Below the pieces are notes generated by a model, which was not told the origin of the DNA, made no database searches, and saw only the letters and a program-made list of their open reading frames with translations. The translations under genes were made by a program, and so were the position numbers. A DNA stretch of 59,611 nt, counting the filler, from Sanchytrium tribonematis (Eukaryota): assembly GCA_018985235.1 (NCBI GenBank). It is 8 parts of 8 records of this genome, joined end to end, with 100 filler letters (N's around TTAATTAATTAA, not from the genome) between each part and the next. Parts side by side here need not be neighbours in the genome. Positions count along the whole stretch, not along the records: positions 29,970 to 37,319 come from JADGIG010000440.1; 7 more parts are not named here. One strand, written 5' to 3'. The first letter of the stretch is position 1. Every line of letters begins with the position of its first letter. Shown in pieces: positions 1,245 to 47,941 of this stretch.

Positions 1245-2653
1245 TTATTCAGAGGAGGGTGTATTTAAAGCAATATTGTTGCCAGATTGCCTAAATGGTG
1301 TTGGAGTGGCCGGATCAACTCCAAAAGCTAGCTTTGTAGTAGATTTTGTAGGAGTGGCTTGCATCATGTTCATACCATTCACTTCTTTTAAAGCTTTCTG
1401 TCTTGCTTCTTCCGCTTTTTGTTTATCAATGTGGATCATCAAATTAATCGCTTTAGTTTTTTCTTCCTCATTGTAAATATGTTCTTTTGTAATCTTTTTT
1501 GAATTGGCAGTCAAATATTTGATCACATCAGATGCCGGAAATTCGGGAGGCACGCCATATTCCAATAAAATGTCATTAGCTATGTACAATTTAGAGACTT
1601 CATTTTTTGGACAGTTAATACGGATATACTCCCAAATCGATTGAAGGGCAATTTGTCTAGGTAAGTATAGATATTTTGTCATTGTTTTAACACAATCATT
1701 CCATTCCAGTAATTTTAAGGACTCAAATTTAATGACTTTCTTTCTCTTTTTATCTGGCTTGGTTTTCTTGTCAAGAAATGACGAGGAGCTTTTAACATGA
1801 CTCATATCTTGAATATCCATAACGAGTTTGATACTCTCTTGTACTGTCATATCTTCCACATTCATTTCTCTCAAGTTGTTTTTAATAACTGTTTTCAGTT
1901 CGGCAGTAGAAACTTGAGTCGATAAAAAAACACATAAATCTCCATTGGGAAAGATTTTGTCCTCATATTTGCATTGTTTCATTGTTGCATAGTCCATAGC
2001 CCGTTGATAAGCGATGTTTAAAGTGGTATATTTTGAACCAAGAAATTGCTCGAGAGCGGGACAAGTCCTCATTACAGCCTCCTCTCGAAACATAATTTTG
2101 GCATCTACTTCATAATCCTTAATTTTATCCAACATTTCAAGATATCGAAAAGTTTTTTGATATTCGGAATTCTGCACCTAAATTAAAAGGAAATTACTTC
2201 CCCGGGAGCAATCAATTTGCCTGGATAATTAAATTTTAAAGGATTGACACGCTCTACGTCTCCAAAAATAGGCTGTAATTCAGGTGTGACAACAATCATC
2301 AATGGTGACATCATTAGGCCTCTTTCTTTGCAATATTTCCAAATTAATTTTCCAATTAATGCATCTGGGAGATACTTTAAGCCAGTAATTCTTTCTATTG
2401 CGGAGTTACACTCGCGGAGAACATGGGTATCCCTTACCCATCTGAATTGCTTGCTCTCTTGAAATGCATATTCAGCGACTGTGATCATGAGGTTTACCCA
2501 ATCTTTTGAGTAGTCCAAAGATGCAGCAGCTTGAACCTCTTTCAAAATATGACCAAGTGGGTTGTTTGGATTTTTGACAAGTTCCTTTAGCTTATACTCT
2601 GCCTTCTTAGGAAGTTTTATAATTCCTTTGTATTTTTGGGTTGGTTTTAGCAT
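1245..2653 (-). CDS. Multi-SWIB-domain protein, 462 aa; join(2653..2198, 2177..1245)
   Basis: Removing a 20-nt GT-AG intron fuses two ORFs in frame (APGE|VQNSEY). Three SWIB-like segments: LIWKYCKERGL..LQPIFG, PALEQFLG..IFPNGDL and SIWEYIR. Confidence 0.65.
2178..2197 (-). other. 20-nt spliceosomal intron GTAATTTCCTTTTAATTTAG
   Basis: GT..AG ends, phase 0, restores the frame between ORFs 2183..2653 and 1245..2177. Confidence 0.75.
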
Positions 2654-7412: not shown

Positions 7413-7512
7413 NNNNNNNNNNNNNNNNNNNNNNNNNNNNNNNNNNNNNNNNNNNNTTAATTAATTAANNNNNNNNNNNNNNNNNNNNNNNNNNNNNNNN
7501 NNNNNNNNNNNN
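7413..7512. other. Artificial contig linker
   Basis: 44 N + TTAATTAATTAA (stops in all six frames) + 44 N. Confidence 0.98.
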
Positions 7513-15011: not shown

Positions 15012-15013
15012 CA

Positions 15014-15442: not shown

Positions 15443-15485
15443 ATACATGATTTGACAGTGTTTTGCACTAATAGGAGGTTAAACA

Positions 15486-15530
15486 ATCACGCCATGATAT
15501 CGTCATAATGGCGTGATAGTCACTATAAAT
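15486..15530 (+). promoter_or_regulatory. Putative promoter: 10-bp inverted repeat plus TATA-like element
   Basis: ATCACGCCAT (15486-95) and ATGGCGTGAT (15508-17), then TATAAAT (15524-30), 24 nt before the ATG. Confidence 0.4.
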
Positions 15531-15554
15531 AGAATCTCGTGTTGATGGCGCATC

Positions 15555-16337: not shown

Positions 16338-16437
16338 ATCTATTTTTACAAAATTTTGCACTGCAAAATGAGGGGGATACATAATGATGTCATTTATGAT
16401 GTCATTTTAACTTCATTATGATGACATTTAAAACAAC

Positions 16438-17139: not shown

Positions 17140-17255
17140 ATGGTATTGCACAACAAGGAGATGAATGACTGCCACATGATATTTTATTTCATCATTTATG
17201 GCATCATCATGGCATCATATTTATAATAAAAGTCATTTCATGTCTTTGATGCATC

Positions 17256-18158: not shown

Positions 18159-18253
18159 ATTCAATAAATCACGGGTTTGACAATGTTTTGTATTTGGGGT
18201 AATTTCTGCCAATGATAGCAGAGTACAACGTCACCCGCTCATGAAAAAGAATC

Positions 18254-18991
18254 ATGTTATTGTCCATTTTCATTTCATTTGCAAGAGTATCCCATACAAC
18301 ATCAGAAACAGTCAGAATTGCAAATAATCCATTAAATAAACAGTCTGATGGAATGAATATGCAATTATTATTTGAATCCATGGGTCTACATCCTAATATA
18401 ATACAATCTGGTGCTCAATTCATGTCATTTGTCATATTACATAAAGCAGAATTAATGAAATGTGTTAGGCAATCAAATTGTCTATTAAAGAACACAAAGC
18501 AACATGGACGATTATTATGGATCCAATTTATGAATACAATGACTAATGAGTCATATCAAAAGATTAAAGACTATTTAATGAAATTGATTAAAGTGAAAAT
18601 GAATTCAAATCATCTTGTTGAAAGATCACCAGAGAAGACTGATGATGACGCAGATGTAATTGATTTGAATCAAGAAAATACATCCAAAATAGTAGCACTA
18701 TTCAAATTGATGGCTCTTTTAGTGCTATCTCTTGGATTGGGATATATTGGAATTTTATTACATAAATATGGAGATACTACTAAATTAATGGATGAAGTAT
18801 GCGGCATAGAATTAAGAGTAGCCAATTATAGAGAATGTCGCTATGATGTCCATATGGTCGGTGGAGACATTGAAAATCAAATTAATTCTGCTGAATTTTA
18901 TCAAATTGTGACACGCCTCATTTTTACGACGGATATTGTTTTTATTCCTATTTTATTGACTTTGATGTATGATGTTCATTTTAATCAGTAA
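18254..18991 (+). CDS. Array member 5
   Basis: MLLSIFISFAR, LLFESMGL, LVER, TM1, CGIELRVANYREC and TM2. Confidence 0.7.
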   Translation: MLLSIFISFARVSHTTSETVRIANNPLNKQSDGMNMQLLFESMGLHPNIIQSGAQFMSFVILHKAELMKCVRQSNCLLKNTKQHGRLLWIQFMNTMTNESYQKIKDYLMKLIKVKMNSNHLVERSPEKTDDDADVIDLNQENTSKIVALFKLMALLVLSLGLGYIGILLHKYGDTTKLMDEVCGIELRVANYRECRYDVHMVGGDIENQINSAEFYQIVTRLIFTTDIVFIPILLTLMYDVHFNQ

Positions 18992-19080
18992 ATGATGCAA
19001 ATATGATGCAATTTTGGAGTTAATCTGACAAATGACAGCACGGTATGGCGTCATTTGCAATTTAAAAATAGTCACCCATC

Positions 19081-20077
19081 ATGATGTGGTCCATTGTCTT
19101 CTTATTCCTATAAATTTAATGGCCATGTATGATGCTATTTGCCAATGAATTACGATTCTAAAATGTTTGGTATCCAGCCCCCTTGTGACAATGTTGCTTC
19201 CTGCTATGACAGTTCCACGATTGAATGGATTCAGTGGAGATACTGTTGTGGCAGCAAATCAGTTATCCCATTAAGTAATGAAGTATCGGGTAGCTGCAGA
19301 ATATTGCGTGCAACATGTCTGGAAGAAATGCAACGTACCATATCGAGTAAAACAGGGTGCTTTGCGTACATGGTATGCATTTACAGATACTGTTGATCGT
19401 AAACAATTTCCATTAATTGCTAAATATCTAGCAGGTGGTCAATGGAACAAGGTAAAGGAGCATTTAAATGTCATTTTGGCACGTGGCTCTCTTTATAAAA
19501 GAGTATTACGAAATGAGGTAATGGAAGCACAAACCGGTGAGCAAATAGGGAATTCTAATGAGAACAAAGCTAAAAAGAGACGAAATCGTATTTATAATCG
19601 ATTTTAGCTATTTTAGCACTAAGTGGCTTATTGTATGCTGCTGTATGGGGTTATATTCAAAATGAGCATGGTTTAGAACATATGAGTGAAATAAGCAACT
19701 TGGCAAATAAGGGTGAAGAAGACATTTTACAAAAAATTATAAACAATTGTGAGTTCAAAAACGTTGGACCAGGCTGTGATGTTCTAGATATTAATCCGTA
19801 TTATTGGACATGTTTGCCAGCCAAAATGGAAGCGTGTCAAACATCCATTAAAGATGGAACATGCCATGTGGAACAAAAAGGAGAATTTGATCAAGAAAAA
19901 TGCAACAAGTTGAGCAATAATTTATCAACAGCATTAGACGATGTGGACGATGCAAAAACACGAGTGAATGAATTGAGTCAAAGAAAAGTTTGGATTCTTA
20001 TAGCTACTTGTACTGATACAGCAGCGTTGCTTGCTGCGGTATATTCACTTTACAAGGCTGTCTTTAAGATCAAATAA
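19081..20077 (+). pseudogene. Array member 6, disrupted; paralogue of 20097..21050
   Basis: MMWSIVFLFL* signal fragment, several in-frame stops and a frameshift near 19605. VAAEYC..RVKQGALRTWYAFTDT is nearly identical to member 7; LYKR site. Confidence 0.65.
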
Positions 20078-20096
20078 ATCTAAAATTACAATTATC

Positions 20097-21050
20097 ATGC
20101 TGTTTAGCAAGGAAAAGTGCAATTTTAACCCCTTTCTGACAATGTTGCTTCCTTCTATGACATATTTTCTACGATGGAATGGAATCAGTACAAATACTAT
20201 AAAAGCAGCAAATCGATTATCCAAATATGTAATGGAGCATCAGGTAGCTGCAGAATACTGCTTTCATCAACTACCAAAGAGATGCATTGTGCCAAATCGA
20301 GTAAAAAAGGGTGCTTTGCGTACATGGTATACATTTACAGATACCATTCATGAACGAGAATATAATGTCATTGCCAAGCTTCTAGCAGGCCAACAATGGG
20401 ATCAAATCCCAAAAGATTTGAGATATTTAAATGAGCATTCTCTTTTAAAAAGAGGTTTAACCACTGATGGAACTCATGAATTTGCTAGTGGAGATGTAGA
20501 ATTAGCCATTCAACTCCCACAACAGTCTGCTGATACCAATGACAAGAAATCCATTGATGAATTTCGAAAATCTATTTTTCTAAAATTAGTTACAATTTTA
20601 TTACTTGCAGGTTCAATGTTTGCAACTGGTTGGGGTATGAAGTCTTATTATCACAAAACTGGGTTGGGTGAAGCTAGAATTACATTTGCAGATGAGACAT
20701 TAGCAACCGTGTCTAATACAATCAGAAATCATTGCGGATTTAAATTTGTAGAACCAAAATGCGACTATTTGATCAGTGATTATGGTGATTGTGTGATAGA
20801 TGATGGATGTCAAAGTGCAATTAACAATGGAGTGTGTCATGTGGTGCCTACAAAAGATTATAATTATACGGATTGCCAGAACTTGATCCCTCAACTGCAA
20901 GCAGCCACAAGAGACCTTGAAGATGCTAATTCAGAATGTTCGCTGTTATATTTTACAGATGCTTTAATCGTTGTAGCGGGATTATTTCAAATTTGTTGGT
21001 TTGTTTGGGTACTTTCAGAATTGCGCAGCGAGGTGCGAAAACATAAATAA
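20097..21050 (+). CDS. Array member 7 (signal peptide apparently missing)
   Basis: LLKR, TM1, CGFKF..C..C..C..C..C and TM2; starts 19 nt after the member 6 stop. Confidence 0.65.
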   Translation: MLFSKEKCNFNPFLTMLLPSMTYFLRWNGISTNTIKAANRLSKYVMEHQVAAEYCFHQLPKRCIVPNRVKKGALRTWYTFTDTIHEREYNVIAKLLAGQQWDQIPKDLRYLNEHSLLKRGLTTDGTHEFASGDVELAIQLPQQSADTNDKKSIDEFRKSIFLKLVTILLLAGSMFATGWGMKSYYHKTGLGEARITFADETLATVSNTIRNHCGFKFVEPKCDYLISDYGDCVIDDGCQSAINNGVCHVVPTKDYNYTDCQNLIPQLQAATRDLEDANSECSLLYFTDALIVVAGLFQICWFVWVLSELRSEVRKHK

Positions 21051-22501: not shown

Positions 22502-22545
22502 TGAAACAATCTGAAGAAGTCCTCATTTGAAATCGATGCCTTTGT

Positions 22546-25500
22546 TTGGAGTTCCTCGTAAAATCTTCTTTGAGGAATAAGATTCCGAAGTCAGAGTGGT
22601 TAAACGTTATGATTAACTTGTTGCCAGAGAGGGTAGCTTGTCTTTTTAACGTCGACGACTACCCTACATATGAAAGGTTTTTGCGAGGACTTATTACGAA
22701 GTTCCGAGCAAAAAGTAAGCTGGCTAAATTGGTGAACGAGATGACCTCGACCATGCAGAAGCCAGGAACGAATGTCTCAGATTACTGCGAGGAAATGAGA
22801 ATGAATGTGGACAAATTAAAGTTCGTACTTAGGAAGCCACTAAGTAGCGATACAGAGATGATGCGTGAGCAAGCAAGAAGATTAGTTACGGATGAGTACG
22901 TTATCTTTAGACTACTACATTTCTGCAGCCCGACCATGAAAGCTAGTGTGCGACATAGCCTGACGGTCAGAGAAGTAACTACAATCTCAGGAGCAGAGCA
23001 CATGCTGGAAACGATCGAACGAGAAGTCAAATTCTTGATCGGATCAAAGTATTACGAATATAGGGACCCTTTTGATGAGGATGTTGCGGGAGGTACCGTA
23101 AAGAAGAACCAAGGAGGTAAGCCTAAGACGGAGGCTAATCCGGAAGGAAAATTTAAGAATTTGATGAAGACGACCATTCGTCGGTTGTCTCCCGAAGACA
23201 GGCAAATGTGTCTCGATGAAGGGCTATGTTTTTTGTGTAAAGACCCGGAAAATAAGCACCGGGCTAGGGATTGCCCCACGATAAGGTCAAAGCACCATAG
23301 AACTCGCCCTAAGGAGGACGAAGCTGGAGGATCGGTCAGGGAGCGTTTTTCTAAGGTACATAAGGTGAAGGCCCGAAGAGTAACCCAAGATTCGACAATT
23401 CCTTGCATCGAGGCAGAGGGTACTGTCGAAGGCGTTTCCAGTAAGCTGCTAGTCGATACGGGCAGTGAAGTGAATCTGGTAACAGTTAAATGGTTGTTAG
23501 ACCATGCGGAAGGACTTCAGGTTAAGAGGTCACCTTACGACCTACTGGAGACATTTAATGAAAAGACGGCAGAGAAGGTACTGGGTAGAGTGGATCTACG
23601 ATGTACTTTAGCTTTTGGGAGCGATGCAATCCTGCCGTTTGAAATAGTAAAGAATAGCGGGTGTCATATTTTGTTGGGCATCGGCAGCATTCAACCATTA
23701 AATATAATTATAAATGGTAAAAGAGGCATCATCGAAATGGGGAACAAAGTAGTTGATTTCAAAACCATGAAGGAAGTGGTTCCCAACTTCTCAGAATCTT
23801 CAAGAGCTTCCGCGGACTCCGAGAGGACTCCGGCCCAAGTAAAGAAGGTCAAAAACTCAGCAAAGGTGTACTACGTGACCAACAAAATGGGCCGCAAGTT
23901 TGAAGACCCAGAAGTGGTAATGGAAGAGCCACCTGAGTTTAACGGTAAAGACCTAACTACTAGAATATCGGTAGAATACCGGGAGCTCCACGATGTAATT
24001 CGTCCCGATTTCCATTCTGGTTTTACCAAAAACGAACCGGAACAGTTGTCGAAACTTTGCATGGAGCTCATTCAAGATGAGGCGGATCCGCCTACTGATA
24101 TGGAGATTGTTAGTGAAGAATTTCCAAGAATGCCAGAGGAAGACTACCCCGGGAATGAGGACATCGTGCACTTTGATGAAATTCCCATTTTAGTGGATGA
24201 TGGTAAACGGCAAGTAGACGCCATTATTAGTGAAATCCGATTTGGGACAACACTTACTCAATCCCAAAAACAGAAAGTGGAGCAGTTAGTAAGGAAACAT
24301 TTGAGTGTGTTTACCGGGAAATTGGGCGCCAAGGTGCCGGCCGCGAAGATCGAGCTAAGAGATATCACACCTTATAAGGAGAAGAGACGACATCGAGATG
24401 CGACCCAGGAGGCGGTGATAGCCGAAAACATTGAAGAGATGCTCGCTCTAGGGTATATAACGGAATGCCCAACGTCAGAATATACACACGAGACAGTTCT
24501 GATTAAGAAGAAAGGCACCAGTAAGTGGCGTTTCTGCATCGATTTTCGTCCTTTGAACGGGAAGTTAGTTTATTGCCACTACCCCCAAGCAGATATTGAA
24601 GACAATATACTACGTTTTGCGGGTAAAAGGTATTTTTGCAAATTTGATATGACTAGTGGGTTCTGGCAGATCAAACTAGATCCAGAATCACAACCATACA
24701 CCGCATTCTACGCTAATGGAAAGCTATACATGTTCTGTGTGCTACCCTTCGGGATTGCTAATGCACCAGCATGGTTTCAACAAATATTAGATAGAGTACT
24801 GGAAGGTTTAGATTTTGCTAAAGCCTTCCTTGACGACATCTCTATGGGTCACGAGACCTTCGAAGGGATGATGGAAGACCTTGAGCGTCTTTTAATTAGA
24901 TTAGACCAATACAACATCAAGTTGAGCGCAAAGAAATGTTATATTGGATTTAAACAAATGGCCTTGTTAGGACATGTCATCGACGATAGTGGGATACGCC
25001 CTGACGATGAGAAGGTCGCGGCATTGTTAAAGGCCAATGTTCCGACCAATAAGAAAGAGTTGGCCTCCTTTCATGGGGCCATGCAGTGGCATCAGCGCTA
25101 CATTCCCGATTACTCGATAATCGCGAAATGTCTTTTAGATCTACTGGCGAAAAAATCGCCGTGGATTTGGGATGAAGAACATCAGGAGGCCTATGATAAG
25201 GTTTTGAACATCTTGGCCAAAAAGGTGGTATTGCATTACCCAGACCCTCGGAAGCCATATCAGATCCGCACGGATGCGTCTAGCAAAAAGGGTCTTGGTG
25301 CGGTCCTCCTACAAGAAGGATTGCCTATCTTTTTCTGGAGTAGGAAATTGTCGGAACGCGAGCTGAAGTGGCACATTACTGAACTAGAGTGTCTCGCCAT
25401 AGTAGAAAGCCTCAAACGATTTGAGAGATATGTCTCGGGCCAGAGTATCACTGTTTTCACTGACCATGGAGCCCTGAGTTGGCTACTTACGGGTCGACCG

Positions 25501-27099
25501 GCGTTAAAAGGAAAACTTTATAGATGGAGTATTTACTTGAGTCAGTTTCAGTTGAAAATTGTTTACATCAAAGGTCATCGTAATCTAGATGCGGACTTTT
25601 TAAGTCGACACCCTTGCGCAGCCGACGCCGAGCAACTTGCTTTCTCGTCAAAGGAGGAGAGAGACTGCAAGAAGGGCGTGGTTGACGAGAATGTGGTTGA
25701 CGAGAGTAAGAAGGGCGTGGTTGACGAGAATGTGGGCGACGAGACGGTTAATTTTTTAAACGCCAAAGTGGGAGAGGTCTCCGCGAAACGAATGTCAGAG
25801 AACAACGTACTTTTGGATCAACAAACAACAGATGAAGAAGTTAGAATGAGATACGATGTCATTCGTACCCGAATGAAGAAAGGTGAAGAAGACGTCATAA
25901 CGGCGAATAATGCCTTGTCTTCCGGGTTCATCCCGAAGTTTGAACCGGTAACTGAGAACTCGTCAAACTTGATGAATGCGATGGTTAAAGATTGGGCGCG
26001 CTACCCCTACCGAGTCTGTCCTGCTAATGAAGTCATTCTGGACATCACAGAATTAGAAAGCGAGATCAATGAGAACCCCTTGAAAAGGTTTTTCCCAGTA
26101 AGGGATCACACTACTAACCCTGGTGACCCAGTCAGGTTCAAAGAGGTTTTGGCCAAAGTGGTGGGACCGGGAACTGAGTATGTGGTAATCGTCACGGCGA
26201 TTGGAGATATGGCGGGAGATCCAGTTCTACCTTCCCGCTACACCTGCACTATTGGGATGGAAGGGCAGACAGATTTGCAAACTAGGTTCGCGCTTCTTGT
26301 ATTAGAATGGGTCATTCCAATTGGGTTGGAAACTATTGGAAGGTTGAACAAGCTATACGCGCTAACCGGTAGAAAAGAAAATCGTTCTAAAGGAGAGCGT
26401 CGACAAACCAGAGAATCGACCGATGTAGAGCATTTTAAGCTATCGGACGATATCAGCAATCGACAGAAGGAGATCGACGAGCTTGTTAAATTGGTTGGTG
26501 GCTCCATTCGAGTGGCTGTTCGTTTTATTGAAAGGGACCGCTTTGAACCGAGACTGCCGGATCATTTTAACATCCTCTTGGGAGAACGATCGGGTTATGG
26601 GGACGTCGTTGCAAAAGATTTAGTATGGGAGGTTCTACCCGTGCCAGTGGGAGACCTAAAAAATAAGTACGCGGAGGCTGAGTCCAAGCTTACCCACGAC
26701 TTGGGTGGCCAGCTGTCGAAGCTGTACCTAGAGTTGGTGTCTTTTAGGGAGCCAGCAGCCCGACTAATCGCTGGTAGCATTCGGCTTCCTGCCACTAGTT
26801 TTTCCCAAATGAGACTTGAAGTAGGGAATCGGGTGTCCTGGATCTTACCCATCAAGGACAGCTCGAAGTACAATAAGGCCCCACTCCAAGGGAAAGACGT
26901 AGTTCTTTTACCCGATGAGCAGCCATGGACGGACCACTTACTGGTGAAAAAAGAGGCCCTAGCCAAACAATATTGTAGTGCGTGGGGATTATTCCTTAGG
27001 AATGCCATGGAGAGATATGGCTTATTCGTTCAAGGGTTCGATCCCACAAGATGGAGGGAGCACCCTTTTGCTTCAAACCAAACCGGAAGCATGGGTTAA
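22546..27099 (+). CDS. Gag-Pol polyprotein: zinc knuckle, protease, RT, RNase H and an unknown extension
   Basis: CFLCKDPENKHRARDC, LVDTGS, WRFCIDFRPLN, LPFGIANAP, FLDD, TDASS..ELECLAIV..TDH..NLDADFLSR. Confidence 0.92.
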   Translation: MEFLVKSSLRNKIPKSEWLNVMINLLPERVACLFNVDDYPTYERFLRGLITKFRAKSKLAKLVNEMTSTMQKPGTNVSDYCEEMRMNVDKLKFVLRKPLSSDTEMMREQARRLVTDEYVIFRLLHFCSPTMKASVRHSLTVREVTTISGAEHMLETIEREVKFLIGSKYYEYRDPFDEDVAGGTVKKNQGGKPKTEANPEGKFKNLMKTTIRRLSPEDRQMCLDEGLCFLCKDPENKHRARDCPTIRSKHHRTRPKEDEAGGSVRERFSKVHKVKARRVTQDSTIPCIEAEGTVEGVSSKLLVDTGSEVNLVTVKWLLDHAEGLQVKRSPYDLLETFNEKTAEKVLGRVDLRCTLAFGSDAILPFEIVKNSGCHILLGIGSIQPLNIIINGKRGIIEMGNKVVDFKTMKEVVPNFSESSRASADSERTPAQVKKVKNSAKVYYVTNKMGRKFEDPEVVMEEPPEFNGKDLTTRISVEYRELHDVIRPDFHSGFTKNEPEQLSKLCMELIQDEADPPTDMEIVSEEFPRMPEEDYPGNEDIVHFDEIPILVDDGKRQVDAIISEIRFGTTLTQSQKQKVEQLVRKHLSVFTGKLGAKVPAAKIELRDITPYKEKRRHRDATQEAVIAENIEEMLALGYITECPTSEYTHETVLIKKKGTSKWRFCIDFRPLNGKLVYCHYPQADIEDNILRFAGKRYFCKFDMTSGFWQIKLDPESQPYTAFYANGKLYMFCVLPFGIANAPAWFQQILDRVLEGLDFAKAFLDDISMGHETFEGMMEDLERLLIRLDQYNIKLSAKKCYIGFKQMALLGHVIDDSGIRPDDEKVAALLKANVPTNKKELASFHGAMQWHQRYIPDYSIIAKCLLDLLAKKSPWIWDEEHQEAYDKVLNILAKKVVLHYPDPRKPYQIRTDASSKKGLGAVLLQEGLPIFFWSRKLSERELKWHITELECLAIVESLKRFERYVSGQSITVFTDHGALSWLLTGRPALKGKLYRWSIYLSQFQLKIVYIKGHRNLDADFLSRHPCAADAEQLAFSSKEERDCKKGVVDENVVDESKKGVVDENVGDETVNFLNAKVGEVSAKRMSENNVLLDQQTTDEEVRMRYDVIRTRMKKGEEDVITANNALSSGFIPKFEPVTENSSNLMNAMVKDWARYPYRVCPANEVILDITELESEINENPLKRFFPVRDHTTNPGDPVRFKEVLAKVVGPGTEYVVIVTAIGDMAGDPVLPSRYTCTIGMEGQTDLQTRFALLVLEWVIPIGLETIGRLNKLYALTGRKENRSKGERRQTRESTDVEHFKLSDDISNRQKEIDELVKLVGGSIRVAVRFIERDRFEPRLPDHFNILLGERSGYGDVVAKDLVWEVLPVPVGDLKNKYAEAESKLTHDLGGQLSKLYLELVSFREPAARLIAGSIRLPATSFSQMRLEVGNRVSWILPIKDSSKYNKAPLQGKDVVLLPDEQPWTDHLLVKKEALAKQYCSAWGLFLRNAMERYGLFVQGFDPTRWREHPFASNQTGSMG
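25669..25746 (+). repeat. In-frame 39-bp tandem duplication (KKGVVDENVV/GDE)
   Basis: AAGAAGGGCGTGGTTGACGAGAATGTGG starts at both 25669 and 25708. Confidence 0.9.
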
Positions 27100-27376
27100 C
27101 CCAGAGGACATCTATTATGAACATGAAGAGTTACAAAAGAATCGCAAGGCCGTGGTCGAAATTCCTAAGAGGGAAAGGGTGATCAAAACATCTTCTTCCC
27201 CACCGCGTAGTCCTTTGTTGGACTTTGAGGAGAATTTAGTCTTTAGGAAGCAGACAAAGAGACCGAAGGTCGACTCTAGAGGAATGGTGAGTTATGCTGA
27301 TCTGAACACGACTAGTGAGGCGATGGTAGCCGCCGTGACCACCTGACGACAAGAGAAGGAAGCGAGAGACGTAGTC

Positions 27377-29197
27377 GTGCTGGACGGAGGTCCCGACCCA
27401 GATGCGATGGACTTGATGGCGGAACCAGATGAATCGGAGACGCTGGAGGAAATAGACTTCCTAAATAGTCAGCTATCCGTAGAGAATATTAAGCGCGTCC
27501 AGGACGCTAACGGACAGATAAAGGACACAACCATGACGGAGGCCCCCGTACCTGGGCATGATACGGCGGAAGAAAACTTCAAGGAATCCATAGACTCTAC
27601 AAACCGGCTATTAGTCGATCCCACACCACTGATGCTACCTGGATTTACTATAGATCAGTTTCGAGAGATTCAGTTAATGGATTCGTCGACTGAAGAAGCC
27701 ACACGTGCCGGGATGGATGAACAGCCACCCCTGGAGAAAGGATTTGATCGGGAACGACACCTGATTACCGTTGGCGGAAGGATTGTCATGCCACGAGTTT
27801 TGGTGCCTACGGCTCTGATGTTTGCACATTGCCATAGAGCGCACGCCAACACAGAGTCCGTGCTGAAGGAGTTGGATGGTTTCTACTGGCCAAAGAAGGC
27901 TGAAGAAATCCGGCATTTCGTGAGCCGCTGTTTCTGGTGCCGAGTGTTTAAAAGCAACAACATGGGAATTGGATACTACACCCGGACGCCCCCTACGATG
28001 CCTTGGGAATGTGCAGCGATCGATGTGCTTTATTTGATTGAGGAAGAGCGACCAGATGGGTCAGCAGTCAGCAAGATCTTCGTCTTTGCAGATGTGCTAA
28101 CTGGATGGGTGAGACTCATCCCGATTCCAGACGAGACGGCAAAGAGTGTAGCCATTGCAATGCTACAAGTAGTAAAATGTGGGAGACACCCTAAGCACAT
28201 CCTCTCCGACAACGCGTCGTATTTTAGAGCTCTACATAAGAGCGCATCAGATTGGAAACTAAATGGACATGTAGAGACCACGTTCCATTTTTGCACCCCT
28301 TATCTGCATCACTCAAACCCGGCAGAGCGACTAAATCGAGAAGTGCTCACCCTGCTGAAGATACATTGTAAGTACTCCGCAGATGGGAGTGAGAGAGCGA
28401 GCCCTTGGACCGAACAATTGGATCTGGTAGAGTCCATCATAAACCATCGGAAAATGGGAAAGAAGCCATCTCCATCTAGTCTGCAGTTTTTGGCTATTGA
28501 CGTGAATGAAATGTCAGAGCCGGTAACTCGAGATGAGAGAGAGGGAGTCGCTCGAATTTGGAATAGGCAGAGGAAAGCGGTTGATGAATTTAGAGCACAA
28601 AAATACGCAGATGCTATTTCTAAAGCCGCGAAAAGAAACCACACGAGGAAAAATACGAGTGACCTGGTGGTGGGGCAACTGGTAGTCTACTGCCCGGATG
28701 TAGGGAAAAAGACCAAGATGGGTAGTAATGCAACTGGCCCATACGTTATTACTGCGAAAAATGGACCTTATGTGGCCCTGGAACATATCCAAAATCGCAG
28801 TGACGCTTTAACAGTCAGCGAGCACCAAGTCAAGTTGGTACATGAGATTGAGTATGATTTAGGAGCCCAGCAGCTTAGAGAAGGGGAGGTATTAAACCCC
28901 ACTGCAGAACGAGGGCGACAGGAGTTAGCAAGAACGAGAATTATTAGGGCCGGTGGTAAAGCCTCGGTCGAAAAGTGCAACCTGGGAGGGATGAGACGTG
29001 TGCCGGAAGTACCTGAGGTAGCCCTTATGTCGACCGAAGGATATGGGGCTGTAATTCGTCGTATCCGGTATGAGCCACTCGTAGGTCGAAACACAGACAC
29101 ACCAGACGAGTTGATTGGTGAGCCAAACAACGTACCAATCAAGGAAGTGACGGGGAACCATAAGAAGGTTGGCTCCCCAAGGACACATCATGACTAG
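27377..29197 (+). CDS. Retrotransposon integrase ORF; its frame extends back through one TGA (27344-46) to about 26978
   Basis: HHCC (H..H..CFWC), DDE (AIDV, SDN, AERLNR) and a GPY motif. Confidence 0.88.
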   Translation: MLDGGPDPDAMDLMAEPDESETLEEIDFLNSQLSVENIKRVQDANGQIKDTTMTEAPVPGHDTAEENFKESIDSTNRLLVDPTPLMLPGFTIDQFREIQLMDSSTEEATRAGMDEQPPLEKGFDRERHLITVGGRIVMPRVLVPTALMFAHCHRAHANTESVLKELDGFYWPKKAEEIRHFVSRCFWCRVFKSNNMGIGYYTRTPPTMPWECAAIDVLYLIEEERPDGSAVSKIFVFADVLTGWVRLIPIPDETAKSVAIAMLQVVKCGRHPKHILSDNASYFRALHKSASDWKLNGHVETTFHFCTPYLHHSNPAERLNREVLTLLKIHCKYSADGSERASPWTEQLDLVESIINHRKMGKKPSPSSLQFLAIDVNEMSEPVTRDEREGVARIWNRQRKAVDEFRAQKYADAISKAAKRNHTRKNTSDLVVGQLVVYCPDVGKKTKMGSNATGPYVITAKNGPYVALEHIQNRSDALTVSEHQVKLVHEIEYDLGAQQLREGEVLNPTAERGRQELARTRIIRAGGKASVEKCNLGGMRRVPEVPEVALMSTEGYGAVIRRIRYEPLVGRNTDTPDELIGEPNNVPIKEVTGNHKKVGSPRTHHD

Positions 29198-29711
29198 TGA
29201 ACGCAATAAACAGTCTAAGTTACTTGCCTTTTATGAGGAGTTATTCAACTCGCTCAACGAACCCTTTACACGAGCCGCGTCGCAGTTTCAGGAGCGACTT
29301 GCAAGATTAGAGACAGGTAAGGTAGCTGCGGACGCGAAGGTTTACGTTATGGTCCGCGATAACGTAAATGCGTGTACCGCGTTACAGGAGAAGTTTGCAG
29401 ACGAGCAAGAGGTGTACAGACAGTACATCCGAGACGCCTGTACTGCCGGGTTTGGGGACTCTGAGATCCTGGTTCAGCTGCTAGGCTTAGGACAGACAAA
29501 CCGGTTGTATGGCAAGGCGTATATTGAAGTCGCACAGATGGCTAAGGTTGATTTACAAGCAATCAACCGCGCAGTAGACGACTGGATGCAGAAGCACTGG
29601 TTTCCTCCCTTTATGGAAGTAGATGCGCCTACGGCAAGCGCGGCCCCCGGAATGGCCGAACGTTACATAATACATGAATACCTCTGTGGTTTTTTAAATG
29701 CTACCGAATAA
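29190..29711 (+). CDS. Extra ORF downstream of integrase, unknown function
   Basis: The ATG lies 5 nt before the integrase stop (ATGACTAG); 173 aa, helical-looking, element-like composition until about 29660. Confidence 0.5.
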   Translation: MTSERNKQSKLLAFYEELFNSLNEPFTRAASQFQERLARLETGKVAADAKVYVMVRDNVNACTALQEKFADEQEVYRQYIRDACTAGFGDSEILVQLLGLGQTNRLYGKAYIEVAQMAKVDLQAINRAVDDWMQKHWFPPFMEVDAPTASAAPGMAERYIIHEYLCGFLNATE

Positions 29712-35113: not shown

Positions 35114-36467
35114 ATGTTCAACACTGTTAGAAGTAAAGTTTCCAAGAAAAAGAAAAGGTATGTGGACGAAAAGGAAGGATTTGACTTGGATTTGTCGTAT
35201 ATTACGGATTATATAATAGCTATGGGGTACCCAAGTCCTTCAGATTCGATAGAAGGGTTATATAGAAATCCAATGAGTGAAGTTTATCGATTTTTAGAAA
35301 CCAAGCACAAAGATCATTACAAAGTATACAATTTATGCTCAGAAAGACATTATGACCCAGCAAAATTTAATGGTAGAGTTTGTCGATATCCTTTTGATGA
35401 CCACAATGCACCTCCTTTAGAAATGATTAAATTCTTTTGCGAAGACGTTGGTCAATTTTTAAAAAAAGACAAGAAAAACATTGCAATTGTGCACTGCAAG
35501 GCTGGTAAGGGGCGTACAGGAACTATGATTGCATCTTATTTGATGCACTGCGGACTCAAGAAATCTGCGAAAGATGCCTTGCTTTACTACGCCAAAGCAC
35601 GAACATATAATGGTGAAGGAGTTACAATTCCAAGTCAGATCAGATATGTTTATTATTATGAGAAACTGATCCAATTGAATTTTAATTATATACCAAAGAA
35701 GATTTATTTTTCGAGATTGATTTTACATAATGTGCCACATTCCATGGTAAATAATCCAGGTATATTTTATTAATTAAGCTTTGTCTCTCAGTATTGTGTC
35801 TAAAAATATGAAAATTTACGAGTCCAAAGAAAATGAGGACTGTCGAATTATAATAGACAAAGGGAAGGATGCCATGTTGGTTTTAAACGAGCCTTTGGTT
35901 TTAGCAGGCGATGTGAAATTCGAACTGACTGCTAAGGCTATTAAAAAAGGAAAATTTGCTACATTTTGGCTAAATACTACATTTATACCCGAGGATGGAA
36001 TCCTGGGATTAACAAAGGGAGAAATAGACAAGCTTTGTAAGGATAGCTCACATAAGGAAGTTCCTGACAAGTTTTGGATCGAGGTACGTTACCACTCTCA
36101 TGTGGAGAAAAATGCCCTGCCTATTGTTAATACATCAGCGGTGCTGAGGCAACAAATAAGGCCAATTTCTGTTCTTGGACTAGGGTCTCCATTGTCATCC
36201 AACGAAGACGTAGTTTCTCAAAAATCAATTAATGTCAGAAGGTCTAGCGCTAGTGATGTTCAGGTTGCAAATATCAGGACAAATCTTGAAAAGGAATTAT
36301 CTAGATCAAAGACATCAGTGCATGTTTCCAATTCTAAAATTTTAGAAGAAACGGAAGAATCAATACGGCGTTCCGGAAGCTTACCTGACATACGGAAAAG
36401 CTCCACAGTAGGCGACAATCATGAAGACGATGATGAAGAAACAGACGAAGAAACAGATGACGAATAA
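35114..36467 (+). CDS. PTEN: PTEN lipid phosphatase; join(35114..35759, 35779..36467)
   Basis: VSKKKKRY..FDLDLSYIT, HCKAGKGRTG and GVTIPSQIRYV; the C2 domain (FWLNTTFI) lies in exon 2. Confidence 0.93.
35760..35778 (+). other. 19-nt intron GTATATTTTATTAATTAAG
   Basis: Removal gives CCA G|CT TTG, joining the phosphatase and C2 regions in frame. Confidence 0.85.
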
Positions 36468-36484
36468 AATGTTCTTTATTTTAA

Positions 36485-37304
36485 TCACGATGTATCCATA
36501 GCATCTAAATTTTCGATATGTTCCTCAATTTCCAAATTTTCCTCCGTAGTTTTCAACACTTCTACATTAACTTGAAATACTTGTGATAGGTGTAGACATA
36601 GTATAATTTCCAAAAACTTTTGGTTTGGGATTTGGTTGTTCATAATTTCTCAAATATTCAGTTTTTTCTTTAGTTATAACACAAACATCAATATTTGAAC
36701 CTGAACCTAAATCGTTAAACACACCAGCTGCAATTGCATTTCTAACCAATTTTATAGCGTCTTCTTTTTCGAGATTTGGTTTAAATTGTGACTCAAACAC
36801 AGACATTGCCGCTAATGAGCCAGATCCCATTGTGACATACGGCAGGGTATCTGTTGAACCATGAGGATAAACTGTATATAAATGTGGTCCAGTAACATCG
36901 AATCCACCGACAACTAATGCAGCTCCAACATGACCTTGATATTTGAACAAATACTGTTTAAGAATGGTAAGCACAGTGTTTACGCGAGGATGGGAGCCAG
37001 TTTCCAAGCTGTGCAATTCTAACTGATATCTTGCCATATTAGTGGTATAGTCAGTGTCAGCAGCAGTCCCGGCTCCACAGCAGTATATATTTGGTGCAAT
37101 ATAATGTATTTTGGTACAGTTTTTGTCAGCTACAACTTGTCCAGCTGTTGCCCTAGTATCAGCACCTAATACAACACCGTCTTTATAAACAATTCCAACA
37201 ATCGTTGTACCTGTTTTCGTAGTCTTGGCTTTGAAGTTCTTAGTTTTGTCTCCAGTCAAATGTTCATTTCTAGCAGATAATGAAAAATCAAATCCTGTGG
37301 TCAT
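36485..37304 (-). CDS. PUP1: 20S proteasome beta-2 subunit; join(37304..36581, 36561..36485)
   Basis: [21 protein letters not shown] and DLGSGSNID; the spliced C-terminus ends ..AMDTS*, like PSMB7 orthologues. Confidence 0.93.
36562..36580 (-). other. 19-nt intron GTATTTCAAGTTAATGTAG
   Basis: Removal restores the tail [27 protein letters not shown]. Confidence 0.85.
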
Positions 37305-37319
37305 TTGTTGCAAAAATTA

Positions 37320-38856: not shown

Positions 38857-39711
38857 TTATTTCAGTCCACCATATGCCAATTCAGTGCTATTCAATGATG
38901 GTCTTTGAATTGCGACATAAATCACATTTTTCAATAATTCCAAAATTCCAATTTGTACCACTCTTTTCTCCCATGCAGCTGGAAATCTTTCATTCAATAA
39001 GAATTCCTTAGCGAATGCCACTGAAATCTTGTCATCTCTACCCATCACATTTGCCAAAAGCACAGTCTCACCATGCATCACAAAATAATCTTTAATCACC
39101 ATTTTCTCTACCATTTTATCACTTCTGTGCTGCAATAATCTCAATTTTCTTGCTTTAATGATCTGATGAAGTGTCAATTCGTCATCTTCTGCAAATTTAA
39201 GCAATTGAGCAACTAGTGTTGGATTTACAGGGATGGCTCTATATTTATCATTATTGGCATCTAATCTGGTCAATGATGCATCATGCTCAATCGCATCATG
39301 TTCTTTATTGGAATGTAGACCCAATTCATTTAAAGAAATGACTGGTACGCCCTTTACAGTTCTTCCCAACTTCTTTGCAAAATCAGTTAAAATCTTGACA
39401 ACTCGTGCAGATGCTTGACTAGTGTGGTGTACAGCTTCAAATAGTTGTTGAATTGGAATATCTGTACCATTAAATGGTAGAATATTGTGATTTGCCAATG
39501 TATTGATGAATGGACATGGGGATCTCAAAGTTATTTTAGAAGGTTGCTTCCATGTAAATTTGTGAACATCAATGCCTTTATATCCATATATATTGGTTGG
39601 ATCTTCAGTCGTATCTGACTTTCGAAATTGATCAGCGTATTCGTTGATAGAATGAACATATTGAGCATCGTGATCATCAGTTTGAGCAAAAAGTAAATTT
39701 GAAAGCAACAT
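38857..39711 (-). CDS. Heme-thiolate peroxidase (chloroperoxidase/UPO family)
   Basis: RSPCPFINTLANH (PCP heme ligand) and IEHDASLTR; short signal peptide MLLSNLLFA. Confidence 0.9.
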   Translation of the reverse strand: MLLSNLLFAQTDDHDAQYVHSINEYADQFRKSDTTEDPTNIYGYKGIDVHKFTWKQPSKITLRSPCPFINTLANHNILPFNGTDIPIQQLFEAVHHTSQASARVVKILTDFAKKLGRTVKGVPVISLNELGLHSNKEHDAIEHDASLTRLDANNDKYRAIPVNPTLVAQLLKFAEDDELTLHQIIKARKLRLLQHRSDKMVEKMVIKDYFVMHGETVLLANVMGRDDKISVAFAKEFLLNERFPAAWEKRVVQIGILELLKNVIYVAIQRPSLNSTELAYGGLK

Positions 39712-40096
39712 GGGTGATTGTGAGAGAGACTGCTTATATACCCTGCAGGATCGTCTGATTGGAATCATTCACGTGTTTGGGGAACCAGGAGAACTCCAAA
39801 ATCCAATCAGAACTTGAGAATGACTAAAAATGACGTCACGTTTTCGCCCTTGAAAAATGAAACATAGTCAATTTGAATACAAGTGTGCACGAGATCGTAC
39901 AATTCATGGCTATAATTGATAAACATATTTGGGATCAAAATCGATATGAAACAGTCAAATCTTTGAAGAATGATGACCTATGATGCGACGGGCAAACTAC
40001 GTCAAATGAGAGTACTCATTTCGCCATAGATGATGTGATGTAGCCAAATATGATGTCATTCTTCAAGTTATCTTGAAAGTTGCGATTTCTCCCTAA

Positions 40097-44865: not shown

Positions 44866-44973
44866 AAATTTCAGTTTGCAAGTCATTTGTATTTAATGTG
44901 ACGTCCTGGTCATCACCGTCAGTTTCTTATCGAATTCAAATGATTATTTTCTCAATTACTCTTCCCTGTTTCA

Positions 44974-46479
44974 ATGATGAAAACCGTATATACGCAAATT
45001 GAAGATTCCTATGAATCATCAGAAGAAGACATTACGATCATAGACCCGCCTACTTGGTTATCGACTATGAAAAATATAAAGAGCGAGATTCAATCCTATT
45101 TAAAATTGCTGTCTATATTGCTTCAATCTATTTGCATCTCACAGTATGCGTCTATTTCCTTATGTATGCTATTATCTCTAATTATTTATGACTTTTATGA
45201 ATTCCCCTTTTATTTAAGGCTAATTTTGTTCATAGGAAAATTAAATTGGTTTCTGACTGAAAATCAAATTGAGATACCATTTATGAAAAATTGGACAATT
45301 CAAAACCCATTGAAAAAAATCAATTATCAGTCCAAATACAAAATAGTCAACTATTTAATAAGACCTGTAGCTGAATCTTCGAGATTAACACATTTGGATA
45401 CAATTCGTGGAATTGCTGCCTTGATTGTTGTCATCCATCATTCTATTCAAGTAACATCAAAAAACAAATCATTTGTGGCTCGAGAATACAACCGCACTTT
45501 AACCAAAGCACCTACTGACTCATTCAGATATTATTTCCAACATGGAAATTTAATGGTGCCTATTTTCTTAGTCTTGAGCGGTTTTATTCTTTGTAAAATC
45601 CACTGGACACCTAAAAGAAGTAAGAATTTGAAAAGGCTTATTATTGGGAGACTTACTCGATTTTATCCTATTTTTTGGATTGCCCAAATCTTATACATGG
45701 TTTTTACATATTACAGTTTTTGTCATTGGAACAATAAGCTATTTAAACAAATTAATGCTGACGGAATGATTTCTTGCTTGACATTGACTCATCATTTCAG
45801 ATTTATTGGCTGGGGGAATCAAAATCGATTTTGCGTTTACCCAGCGTGGACATTAAGCGTAGAACTCATGTTTAATTTGGGAATGTATCTTGTGATTCGA
45901 TATTTACCAGTTTATTGGGGAATCTTTGCATTTGAATTGGCAACTTTATTTACATATTTTTCATTTACTTCTTACTTTGTCAATTCCAAAATTTTACAAG
46001 TTGGTTTCGCTTTCTGTATTGGTGTTTTATATTATAAAATATTTGGTAAATTCAAGGTATTTCGTCCAATTTTTCAAATTCCATTCGATTTTATTGTCAT
46101 CTATTTATTATGGAATATTGATTCACTTTTATTGAATAATTGGCAGTTTTATGGACCTATCTGGGGTCTGTCTTTAATTGTAGCATTGGATAATTCGTAC
46201 TTTTTAAAACGTGTTTTTGGTTATTTCAGCATTCTCGGAGATTTGTCATTTGCAATTTATTTATTGCATGTTCCTCTTGGTGATTTGATGGTGATACTGG
46301 TTAATTATGGATATATCAGCAAAATTGATAGCGATCTAAACATGCTTTTTTGGCTATTTATTTTGTGTAGTGTGAGTTATTTAATGCATATAAAATTTGA
46401 AATGCCCGTCAAGAAATATTTGGATGAGATTCTAGGGTTGCGTGAAAGAGCCAAAAAAGAGTTGAAGGAGCATGTATGA
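44974..46479 (+). CDS. Acyltransferase-3 family (OafA/YrhL-like) membrane O-acyltransferase
   Basis: LDTIRGIAALIVVIHH, FLVLSGF, RLTRFYP, WTLSVE, LGDLSFAIYLLH and FEMP. Confidence 0.88.
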   Translation: MMKTVYTQIEDSYESSEEDITIIDPPTWLSTMKNIKSEIQSYLKLLSILLQSICISQYASISLCMLLSLIIYDFYEFPFYLRLILFIGKLNWFLTENQIEIPFMKNWTIQNPLKKINYQSKYKIVNYLIRPVAESSRLTHLDTIRGIAALIVVIHHSIQVTSKNKSFVAREYNRTLTKAPTDSFRYYFQHGNLMVPIFLVLSGFILCKIHWTPKRSKNLKRLIIGRLTRFYPIFWIAQILYMVFTYYSFCHWNNKLFKQINADGMISCLTLTHHFRFIGWGNQNRFCVYPAWTLSVELMFNLGMYLVIRYLPVYWGIFAFELATLFTYFSFTSYFVNSKILQVGFAFCIGVLYYKIFGKFKVFRPIFQIPFDFIVIYLLWNIDSLLLNNWQFYGPIWGLSLIVALDNSYFLKRVFGYFSILGDLSFAIYLLHVPLGDLMVILVNYGYISKIDSDLNMLFWLFILCSVSYLMHIKFEMPVKKYLDEILGLRERAKKELKEHV

Positions 46480-46740: not shown

Positions 46741-47941
46741 TTAGCCTTTCACAACACCAAGTTTATCAATAGCACGAGTTCCATATTCTGCCCAATCTTC
46801 TTTGGTGATCCAAAAGTGAGGTTTATCTTTCATGATATCAGCCAACACACTTCCACCCAACCACACCATATGTTTTCTTCTAGGTGGATCTTCCACCTTT
46901 ATTTTAAATTTCTTCAGTCTGGACAAGTCACCATTGGCAATTTTCTGCAAATATAATTGCTTTACTTCTCTTTCTAATCGACTTGGCAATCCTGGATACC
47001 TAAATAAATTAAAAATACATAGTAGAACCACCACTTAAAACAATGTGCTTGTACAATTCACTCCGAATATCCATATCTGCAGTTTGAATGGTATTAAACA
47101 AAAGCTCTGCAACTCCTGCACTTTCTACATCGACTAAATGAGGTTGAAATAAGACCTCTGGTGCCTCAAATCTTTCACTTCCAACTTTAATCGTTCTTCC
47201 ATCTGGTAAAACATATTTTTCAACGCAATAAGTAGTTTCTTGGGCCAACTTCATTTCTTGTGGAATATCATATGCAACGTAGCACAATTCTTCTTTGATT
47301 TCTCTAACAGTCTCAAAATCAGCGCTTTTATTAAAAGCGTATCCTCTTTGAAGAAGTAATTTGATAAGGTATTTTGTGACATCTCGACCAGCAATATCTA
47401 ATCTTCTTGTCAAATGATTAAGCGAATATCCATCATAAACTGGTACAATGTGTGTGACACCGTCACCAGCATCTACCACAACACCAGTTAATAATCCTTG
47501 GGCATATAGAGTTAAAACAGCCTGAATAGCAATGTAACAACCACTAAATTGATATTGCTCCATCATTGTTTCAACCATTCTTTCTCGGTTCTTTTTTGGA
47601 TTGAGAGGAGGCTCTGTCAACATCGTATAAGTTTCCTTTGGGTTGCATTTTAATTTTTCAAAAGTGTAATTCCAAACGAAGTGCATATCGTCCCAGTTAC
47701 GTACTTGTCCATTTTCCATAGGATAGTTCATTTGCAATAATTGTGTGAATGGTGTACATTCGTCACCGACCATGATATCTTTTACGGTTTTGCCAGTTTT
47801 CTCTTGAATGGCTTTTAGATCCGTCTGACTAGTCAAAATAGGTCTACCAACAACTGATGGAAAAATTGATGTTGGGAAATTACTACCTGCCCATCCCGCC
47901 TTAACAAATCCAGATCCATTATCAATAACGATGGGTTTCAT
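46741..47941 (-). CDS. ARP2: Actin-related protein 2; join(47941..47019, 46999..46741)
   Basis: [33 protein letters not shown], spliced [15 protein letters not shown] and [10 protein letters not shown]. Confidence 0.96.
47000..47018 (-). other. 19-nt intron GTATTTTTAATTTATTTAG
   Basis: Removal gives ACT AT|G TAT CCA GGA, the highly conserved GGSTMYPG motif. Confidence 0.92.

What the first reader, a model, noticed from the sequence alone, without database searches (positions are those of the whole stretch)
35760..35778. Branch point fused to the 3' splice site (A at -6) and a built-in stop codon in every mini-intron
Seen: the 3' ends are TTAATTTAG, TTAATTAAG, TTAATGTAG, TTTATTTAG and TTAATTTAG. 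All have A at -6, none has a separate polypyrimidine tract, and the 5' ends are GTAT (4 of 5) or GTAA. In all five, the upstream reading frame hits TAA inside the intron (2183, 35771, 36567, 47009, 57813), and none has a length divisible by 3. Known: a conserved A 6 nt from the 3' end also marks heterotrich ciliate mini-introns. Inference: convergent lariat geometry with a loop of only 14-15 nt, and unspliced RNA exposed to NMD. The sample is small and biased towards ORF-breaking introns.
Basis: partly seen in the sequence, partly recalled or inferred. Interest (0 to 1): 0.7.

Follow-up and report, generated by a model that had tools for sequence, protein, structure and literature searches.

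The report
Nineteen-base introns in a sanchytrid fungus
Five genes of a sanchytrid fungus are interrupted by 19-20-base inserts with GT-AG ends and an A six bases from the end; these are very likely introns, probably shorter than any yet described in fungi, the A is likely the branch point, and the stop codons inside them are likely a by-product of that signal rather than a requirement.

Summary
Five 19-20-nt GT-AG inserts break PTEN, proteasome beta2, Arp2, Cdc24 and a SWIB gene; all have A at -6 (p=0.0025) and an in-frame stop. The organism groups with Amoeboradix gromovi (sanchytrid fungi). Removing the inserts restores Arp2 without gaps, and the PTEN junction matches human intron 6 in codon and phase. 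Public proteins of relatives break at the same sites; back-translating 12 of them never excludes A at -6 and forces it twice, once in a 21-nt version, so the A is tied to the 3' end. The 'stop in every intron' rule fails: in 4 of 5 the stop is the branch-point TAA itself, p rises to 0.05-0.11 once the consensus is kept, and 3 of 12 orthologous introns lack a stop, one being 3n. The geometry and motif-made stops are published for Yarrowia; A at -6 for Stentor. New is the size and lineage: I found no paper on sanchytrid introns, and the shortest fungal-side introns I found in print are 22 nt. No RNA was available. This scan noted longer tiny introns in Rozella and Neolecta, none in sanchytrids.

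The parts
35760..35778 (+). 19-nt phase-1 intron in PTEN; putative branch A at 35773; in-frame TAA 35771-35773 is part of the branch motif
   Evidence: Joins phosphatase domain to C2 domain; junction aligns with vertebrate GTC|NPQF, i.e. human Asn212, c.634|c.635, intron 6; 4 of 4 relatives' predicted proteins break at the same codon
35114..35759 (+). PTEN exon 1 (phosphatase domain)
   Evidence: PDB PTEN E=1e-71
35779..36467 (+). PTEN exon 2 (C2 domain and tail)
   Evidence: Pfam PTEN_C2 E=1.1e-13; PDB PTEN E=1.6e-5
36562..36580 (-). 19-nt phase-1 intron in proteasome subunit beta2 (PSMB7/PUP1); putative branch A at 36567; a second in-frame AG lies 3 nt downstream
   Evidence: Splicing restores the conserved C-terminal ...AMD.S tail with no gap at the junction; 4 of 4 relatives stop at intron nt 12-14
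47000..47018 (-). 19-nt phase-2 intron in Arp2; A(-6) at 47005; a better U2 match lies at -10; in-frame TAA at nt 8-10 and terminal TAG
   Evidence: Splicing gives a gapless junction against 10 of 10 homologues; 3 of 3 relatives break at the same site; A. gromovi read-through forces A at nt 14; U2 pairing scores
57808..57826 (-). 19-nt phase-1 intron in Cdc24 (PH domain); putative branch A at 57813
   Evidence: PH_10 profile split over the two ORFs; gapless against P0379; relative P0428 carries a 21-nt stopless version at the same site
2178..2197 (-). 20-nt phase-0 intron in a SWIB-domain gene; putative branch A at 2183; an alternative in-frame AG 6 nt downstream would give 26 nt; least supported of the five
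   Evidence: Joins 157 and 310 open codons; exon 1 SWIB E=0.00095, below the Pfam cut-off; exon 2 SWIB-like by language-model features at 0.83, a lead only; no homologue spans the junction

Best explanation
These GT-AG inserts of 19-20 bases, all with A at -6, are very likely ordinary U2-type spliceosomal introns shrunk to near the known minimum in an intron-poor sanchytrid fungus, with that A likely serving as the branch point and the in-frame stops likely a by-product of the splice signals. Shown: positions, lengths, the consensus GTA(W)...YTNAY-N-HAG, restoration of conserved proteins on removal, the same breakpoints in relatives, the shared position with human PTEN intron 6. Inferred: U1/U6 read the short 5' GTA; U2 (GUAGUA) pairs with the YTNAY element and bulges the A at -6; the AG three bases further on is taken as the 3' site, so branch point and acceptor act as one element with no pyrimidine tract; the lariat loop is 14-16 nt; length changes (19, 20, 21) fall between the 5' site and the branch point. 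Because the element contains TAA and usually ends in TAG, a 19-nt intron carries an in-frame stop in two of three phases without any further selection.
For: Gapless Arp2 junction against 10 of 10 homologues and restored PSMB7 tail. PTEN junction equals human c.634|635. Clade with A. gromovi at 100/99 and 100/100 support. A-6 in 5 of 5, p=0.0025; A-6 is the best U2-pairing A in 4 of 5. In 12 orthologous sites of relatives, by back-translation: A at -6 forced in 2 (P0125 if 19 nt; P0428, 21 nt, ending HAAYGTAG), a stop TRR at nt 12-14 in 5, compatible in 2, uninformative in 3, excluded in 0. Chance of the first stop at nt 12-14 is about 0.06 per intron. No in-frame stop in 3 of 12 (P0245, P0367, P0428). 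The length/phase classes that give stops here (20 nt phase 0, 19 nt phase 1 from the branch TAA; 19 nt phase 2 from TAG) are those listed for Yarrowia (PMC2911113).
Against: No RNA was seen: neither splicing nor branching is shown directly. Five introns in the window, four loci in relatives; relatives' introns are inferred from truncated proteins with GT assumed, not from DNA, and some rows come from the same organisms. In the Arp2 intron an A at -10 pairs better with U2 than the A at -6. The stop excess stays borderline (p=0.05-0.11) and 9 of 12 relatives' introns do hold a stop. P0245 also fits a 13-nt reading formally (score 17 over 6 residues against 10 over 4 for 19 nt). One further GTAT..AG candidate (19588-19607) lacks A at -6; I read it as a frameshift, but that rests on 337 against 315 alignment score. 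U2 snRNA and spliceosomal proteins of this organism could not be examined (no genome; only a tRNA in Rfam scan).
Confidence: 0.75

Rival explanations
1. Selection for nonsense-mediated decay shapes length and phase so that each retained intron brings its own stop.
For: Stops in 5 of 5, p=0.007 against composition; in all four introns with a TAA branch motif the TAA is in frame; 0 of 4 19-nt introns are in phase 0; no credible 3n intron in the window; 9 of 12 relatives' introns hold a stop; Yarrowia shows a deficit of stopless 3n introns.
Against: p=0.05-0.11 once the consensus is kept; 3 of 12 orthologous introns have no stop, including a stopless 21-nt one; non-3n introns meet a stop 2-71 nt downstream anyway; the PTEN phase is ancestral, shared with human.
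Confidence: 0.13
2. The introns are real but cut by a length ruler from the 5' end; the A is at +14 and its -6 position is incidental, or branching uses another A.
For: Four of five introns are exactly 19 nt, so +14 and -6 coincide; the Arp2 intron has a better U2 match at -10.
Against: The 20-nt intron has the motif at +15 and the inferred 21-nt intron at +16, both -6; the A. gromovi Arp2 orthologue has TTY at nt 8-10 and A at nt 14.
Confidence: 0.08
3. The breaks are assembly errors or frameshifted pseudogenes, not introns.
For: No transcript seen; the window holds at least one plain frameshift (about 19596).
Against: Exact 19-nt excess in a gapless Arp2 region with GT-AG ends; same break sites in up to four other clade members with diverged insert sequence; human intron position shared; contigs of run X1 carry the PTEN and PSMB7 inserts without gaps (X1 may be the window's own source, so not independent).
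Confidence: 0.02

Closest known systems
Yarrowia lipolytica introns (PMC2911113 and PMC2483917, passages)
   Same: Fungus; branch point and 3' site form one element with the branch A at -6; no pyrimidine tract; branch TAA and acceptor TAG create premature stops in the same length/phase classes.
   Different: Yarrowia introns are described as rather long, with a strict ACTAAC and GTGAGT donor; here 19-21 nt, a degenerate T-rich YTNAY and a donor reduced to GTA.
Stentor coeruleus (heterotrich) 15-16-nt introns (PMC9505925, passages)
   Same: AT-rich, GTA start, invariant A at -6, small lariat loop, conserved U2 GUAGUA proposed to pair with a U-rich branch region.
   Different: Ciliate, 15-16 nt, about 8,800 introns, no strong branch consensus; here a recognisable fungal YTRAY-like motif, 19-21 nt, intron-poor.
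Encephalitozoon cuniculi introns, 22-76 nt (PMC3629993 and PMC2483917, passages)
   Same: Reduced parasite on the fungal side, few short introns, TAAYTT-type branch motif.
   Different: Longer and variable, strict GTAAGT donor. I could not check its branch-to-AG distance (PMC3809491 not held).
Mikrocytos mackini 16-17-nt introns (PMC10245619, passages) and Bigelowiella natans nucleomorph 19-nt introns (PMC2483917)
   Same: Near-fixed ultra-short length; Mikrocytos also combines few introns (224) with conserved sequence.
   Different: Rhizarian or algal nucleomorph; the nucleomorph is intron-dense and shows no branch signature, whereas these keep one.
Trichomonas vaginalis type B introns, 23-25 nt (PMC12316389, passages)
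   Same: Short, intron-poor genome, branch site fused to the 3' motif.
   Different: Branch A at -8; longer.

Membership tests
U2-type spliceosomal intron | GT...AG ends | tested here: met
   5 of 5
U2-type spliceosomal intron | Removal restores a conserved reading frame | tested here: met
   Arp2, PSMB7, PTEN, Cdc24; for the SWIB gene only ORF joining
U2-type spliceosomal intron | Branch motif able to pair with U2 GUAGUA | tested here: met
   A-6 best-scoring in 4 of 5, second in Arp2, using the motif quoted in PMC9505925, not this organism's U2
U2-type spliceosomal intron | Position shared with introns of distant eukaryotes | tested here: met
   PTEN only: human intron 6, same codon and phase; not tested for the other four
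U2-type spliceosomal intron | Excision seen in RNA; lariat at the branch A | not testable with these tools
   No RNA run was available for laying
U2-type spliceosomal intron | Organism encodes U1/U2/U4/U5/U6 and spliceosomal proteins | not testable with these tools
   No genome held; Rfam finds only a tRNA in the window
Fused branch point-acceptor introns (Yarrowia type) | Fixed short branch-to-AG distance, A at -6, no pyrimidine tract | tested here: met
   5 of 5 in the window; 0 of 12 relatives' sites exclude it, 2 force it
Fused branch point-acceptor introns (Yarrowia type) | Strict ACTAAC branch consensus | tested here: not met
   TTAAT in 4, TTTAT in 1; -7 varies in relatives
Ultra-short-intron lineages (Stentor, Mikrocytos, nucleomorph) | Genome-wide narrow length under about 25 nt | tested here: inconclusive
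   5 of 5 in 59.6 kb are 19-20 nt and no longer ORF-joining intron with these ends stood out, but the genome was not available
NMD-shaped introns (deficit of stopless 3n introns) | In-frame stops beyond what splice motifs give; stopless 3n introns depleted | tested here: inconclusive
   p=0.05-0.11; one stopless 3n orthologue; sample too small for a depletion test
Sanchytriomycota (organism) | Groups with Amoeboradix gromovi in protein trees | tested here: met
   PSMB7 100/99, Arp2 100/100; identity 87-94% against at most 75% for the other listed hits

The most novel reading that the evidence does not exclude
The whole phylum Sanchytriomycota runs on 19-21-nt introns, the shortest in Fungi and so far overlooked, and its spliceosome has been remodelled to read branch point and AG as one unit and to fit a 14-nt lariat, an independent arrival at the heterotrich geometry from an ancestral fungal intron set.
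Probability: 0.4. Interest if true: 0.7.

Novelty: new member of a known kind. Interest (0 to 1): 0.5.

Why it matters
It would add a fungal lineage to the short list with introns under 22 nt and lower the fungal minimum found in my searches (22 nt, E. cuniculi). At least one of these introns is ancestral (shared with human PTEN), so the case shows shrinkage of old introns rather than a new class. It combines few introns (about 0.12 per kb of ORF; Allomyces 1.30 per kb on an orthologue set, PMC8476143, a different measure) with a kept branch motif and a near-bare donor, a test of the intron-number rule for signal strength in PMC2483917. Practically, the published sanchytrid proteomes were made with TransDecoder on genomic contigs (PMC8371127); A. 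gromovi PTEN, PSMB7 and Arp2 records end inside these introns, and the window's own exons stand as separate EukProt proteins, so domain-loss calls in this phylum need rechecking. The -6 geometry and the motif-made stops are themselves already published for Yarrowia.

Tried and rejected
Genome-wide logo: no genome held. RNA: no RNA holder listed, which says nothing on expression; run X2 held only short pieces. Metagenome scan with A. gromovi Arp2 returned 4 loci at 62-67% identity, none a sanchytrid, all four intronless at the Arp2 site; left out of all counts. Sixth candidate 19588-19607(+), 20 nt, T at -6: against its intact paralogue 20004-21050 a one-base frameshift scores 337 and the spliced form 315 with a 6-residue gap; run X1 has the same letters there; rejected as an intron but not excluded. 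Match 19491-19509(-) is antisense to that gene; treated as chance. Stopless 3n introns: of 137 in-frame GTA..AG stretches of 15/18/21/24 nt, 3 carry the branch motif; by eye they lie in coding motifs (LRR cap, GT8, RhoGEF; motif identities recalled, not tested) and were rejected. The 6-residue insertion near the Arp2 N-terminus is conserved in sequence in relatives, so coding. Cdc24 hits P0378-P0380 (49-59% to exon 1) have no insert at the site; they are paralogues or distant relatives and were used only for collinearity, not counted among the 12. Literature for prior reports: searches 'sanchytrid+intron', five-term search (19), tiny-intron terms with early fungi, 'Sanchytri+splic' (78), 'Amoeboradix+intron' (79); passages of PMC8371127, PMC10459994, PMC10406608 do not mention nuclear introns of sanchytrids. 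Supplements and subscription journals were not seen and could hold a mention. A search on minimal branch-to-AG distance returned nothing. PMC5659724 and PMC3809491 were not held.

Full report
What the window is. The window is eight contigs of about 7.3-7.4 kb joined by N spacers with a 12-nt linker. It is gene-dense, about 32-36% GC outside a retrotransposon, uses the standard code and carries fungal genes such as Cdc24 with its CDC24 calponin domain. The closest named protein to its proteasome beta2 is Amoeboradix gromovi at 87%, and to its Arp2 A. gromovi at 94%; other listed hits outside this group reach at most 75% and 73%. In maximum-likelihood trees of 20 and 17 hand-picked rows the window, A. 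gromovi and unnamed ENA/NCBI proteins form one clade at 100/99 and 100/100. The organism is a sanchytrid (Sanchytriomycota, sister to Blastocladiomycota according to PMC8371127, passages). No whole genome was held.

Checking the observation. A systematic scan of all GT/GC..AG stretches of 14-60 nt that join open frames found these five as the only ones with both long flanking frames and the 3' motif. Shuffling intron interiors gives A at -6 in all five with p=0.0025 (0.036 allowing any column) and four invariant 3' columns with p=0.0014. Density is 5 in 43.4 kb of ORFs from 47 ORFs on the seven non-retrotransposon contigs, about 0.12 per kb; introns near gene ends or in UTRs would be missed.

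Are they introns? Removing the 19 nt from Arp2 gives a junction without gaps against 10 of 10 homologues; the PSMB7 removal restores the conserved C-terminal tail with no gap at the junction; the PTEN removal joins phosphatase and C2 domains. The PTEN junction aligns with vertebrate GTC|NPQF; by ungapped extension from the PDB alignment that codon is human Asn212, and human intron 6 lies between c.634 and c.635, phase 1 of codon 212 (PMC5599331, passages). So this is an old intron position. Cdc24 is gapless against P0379. The 20-nt SWIB intron has no spanning homologue and is the weakest; a 26-nt alternative exists.

Evidence from relatives. Public proteins of this clade were predicted without splicing (TransDecoder on genomic contigs for A. 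gromovi, PMC8371127), so their ends read into the introns and can be back-translated, assuming GT at the homologous site. Twelve orthologous sites were examined. PSMB7: 4 of 4 stop exactly at intron nt 12-14, the register of the window's branch TAA, although the three codons before differ in each; chance is about 0.06 per intron, and these rows are related, so the product of 1e-5 overstates the case. PTEN: P0366 (A. gromovi) stops at 12-14, P0368 at 6-8, P0245 and P0367 have no stop in the intron; for P0367 only a 19-nt intron yields SLSLSIVS against the window's ALSLSIVS, while P0245 fits 19 nt and formally 13 nt. Arp2: A. gromovi reads through to a stop at 17-19 and forces A at nt 14; P0126 stops at 2-4, P0244 at 8-10. 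Cdc24: P0428, 84% and 67% identical to the two exons, has seven extra residues at the site; the only possible GT..AG reading is a phase-1, 21-nt intron ending A-T-H-A-A-Y-G-T-A-G, with A forced at -6 and no stop; a random 8-residue stretch allows GT..AG there and forces A at -6 in 1.4% of trials. That insert could also be a translated former intron. Tally: A at -6 forced in 2 of 12, stop at 12-14 in 5, compatible in 2, uninformative in 3, excluded in 0; in-frame stop inside the intron in 9 of 12, absent in 3.

How it likely works. With lengths of 19, 20 and 21 nt the A stays at -6, so it is anchored to the 3' end. With the U2 motif GUAGUA quoted in PMC9505925, A-6 is the best pairing position in 4 of 5 introns; in Arp2 an A at -10 scores higher, but the A. 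gromovi orthologue lacks that A and keeps A-6. Three bases separate the A from the AG and the lariat loop would be 14-15 nt in the window. I infer intron definition by a short GTA donor plus one fused branch-acceptor element, as proposed for Yarrowia, Trichomonas and Giardia. Branching and splicing are not shown directly.

The stop codons. In 4 of 5 the in-frame stop is the TAA of the branch motif; in Arp2 the terminal TAG is also in frame. Three relatives' introns lack a stop and one of them is 3n. Each window intron, being non-3n, would meet a stop 2-71 nt past the 3' site regardless. Mekouar et al. (PMC2911113, passages) list the same classes for Yarrowia: branch TAA in frame for 3n+2 phase 0 and 3n+1 phase 1, acceptor TAG for 3n+1 phase 2, with motifs giving about half of all stops; they also report a deficit of stopless 3n introns, so some NMD shaping here is not excluded.

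Comparison and novelty. The -6 geometry is known from Yarrowia (PMC2483917, abstract and passages) and Stentor (PMC9505925, passages); fused elements at -8 from Trichomonas and Giardia. Introns under 22 nt are known from Stentor, Mikrocytos (PMC10245619, passages) and the B. natans nucleomorph. On the fungal side the shortest I found in print are E. cuniculi at 22-76 nt (PMC3629993, passages) and about 30 nt in Rozella (PMC6349667, passages); a 2026 overview lists ciliates, microsporidia and dicyemids as the exceptions under 30 bp (PMC13644364, first third of text). My searches found no report of sanchytrid nuclear introns; supplements and subscription journals were not seen. Earlier notes of this scan describe 25-32-nt introns in Rozella and about 37-nt introns in Neolecta, none in sanchytrids; they are unchecked and give context only.

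Verdict. Real feature; branch-point reading likely right; 'stop in every intron' is mostly a consequence of the motif and is not universal. The geometry is a known kind; its occurrence in 19-21-nt introns of a fungal phylum whose proteomes ignore them appears unreported. Interest 0.5.

Noticed in passing
window 7413-7512 and every ~7.45 kb: The window is a concatenation of eight contigs sorted by length, joined by 44 N, a 12-nt six-frame-stop linker and 44 N; genes at these edges (Piwi 14197, DCTN5 29970, myosin 52205) are cut by the join, not by introns.
   Followed up: yes
window 15012-21050: Tandem family of unknown proteins with hydrophobic N-terminus, a transmembrane-like stretch and a cysteine-rich C-terminal part, no Pfam match; one copy (19275-20077) is broken near 19596, best read as a one-base frameshift.
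   Followed up: partly
window 18250: A contig of run X1 has 19 extra bases here that lack GT-AG ends in either orientation; X1 also shows clusters of alternative letters on this contig, suggesting two alleles or paralogues.
   Followed up: no
window 22531-29708 and 7464-8522: LTR-retrotransposon-like element with RT, RNase H and integrase in separate frames and higher GC; a gag-like ORF on another contig.
   Followed up: no
window 35114-37316: PTEN and PSMB7 lie tail to tail; A. gromovi holds both on NODE_256 with consecutive ids and three ENA pairs share contig lengths, so the neighbourhood is probably conserved in the clade.
   Followed up: partly
window about 47780-47835 (-): Arp2 has a clade-specific insertion of about 6 residues near the N-terminus, conserved in relatives and therefore coding.
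   Followed up: yes
P0428: This close Cdc24 relative begins at about residue 341 of the window protein, which may mark another intron or a contig end in that organism; three more distant Cdc24-like proteins (P0378-P0380) suggest paralogues in the clade.
   Followed up: no
window 3076-4572: V-ATPase subunit a-like ORF of 498 codons covers only profile positions 210-650 of 815 and looks divergent; no mini-intron extends it.
   Followed up: partly
window 38860-39768, 44944-46476, 1-1224: Heme-thiolate peroxidase (Peroxidase_2), acyltransferase-3 and BT1 transporter genes; origin not examined.
   Followed up: no
window 36565: Run X1 differs at position -4 of the PSMB7 intron while A-6 and the ends are unchanged.
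   Followed up: yes
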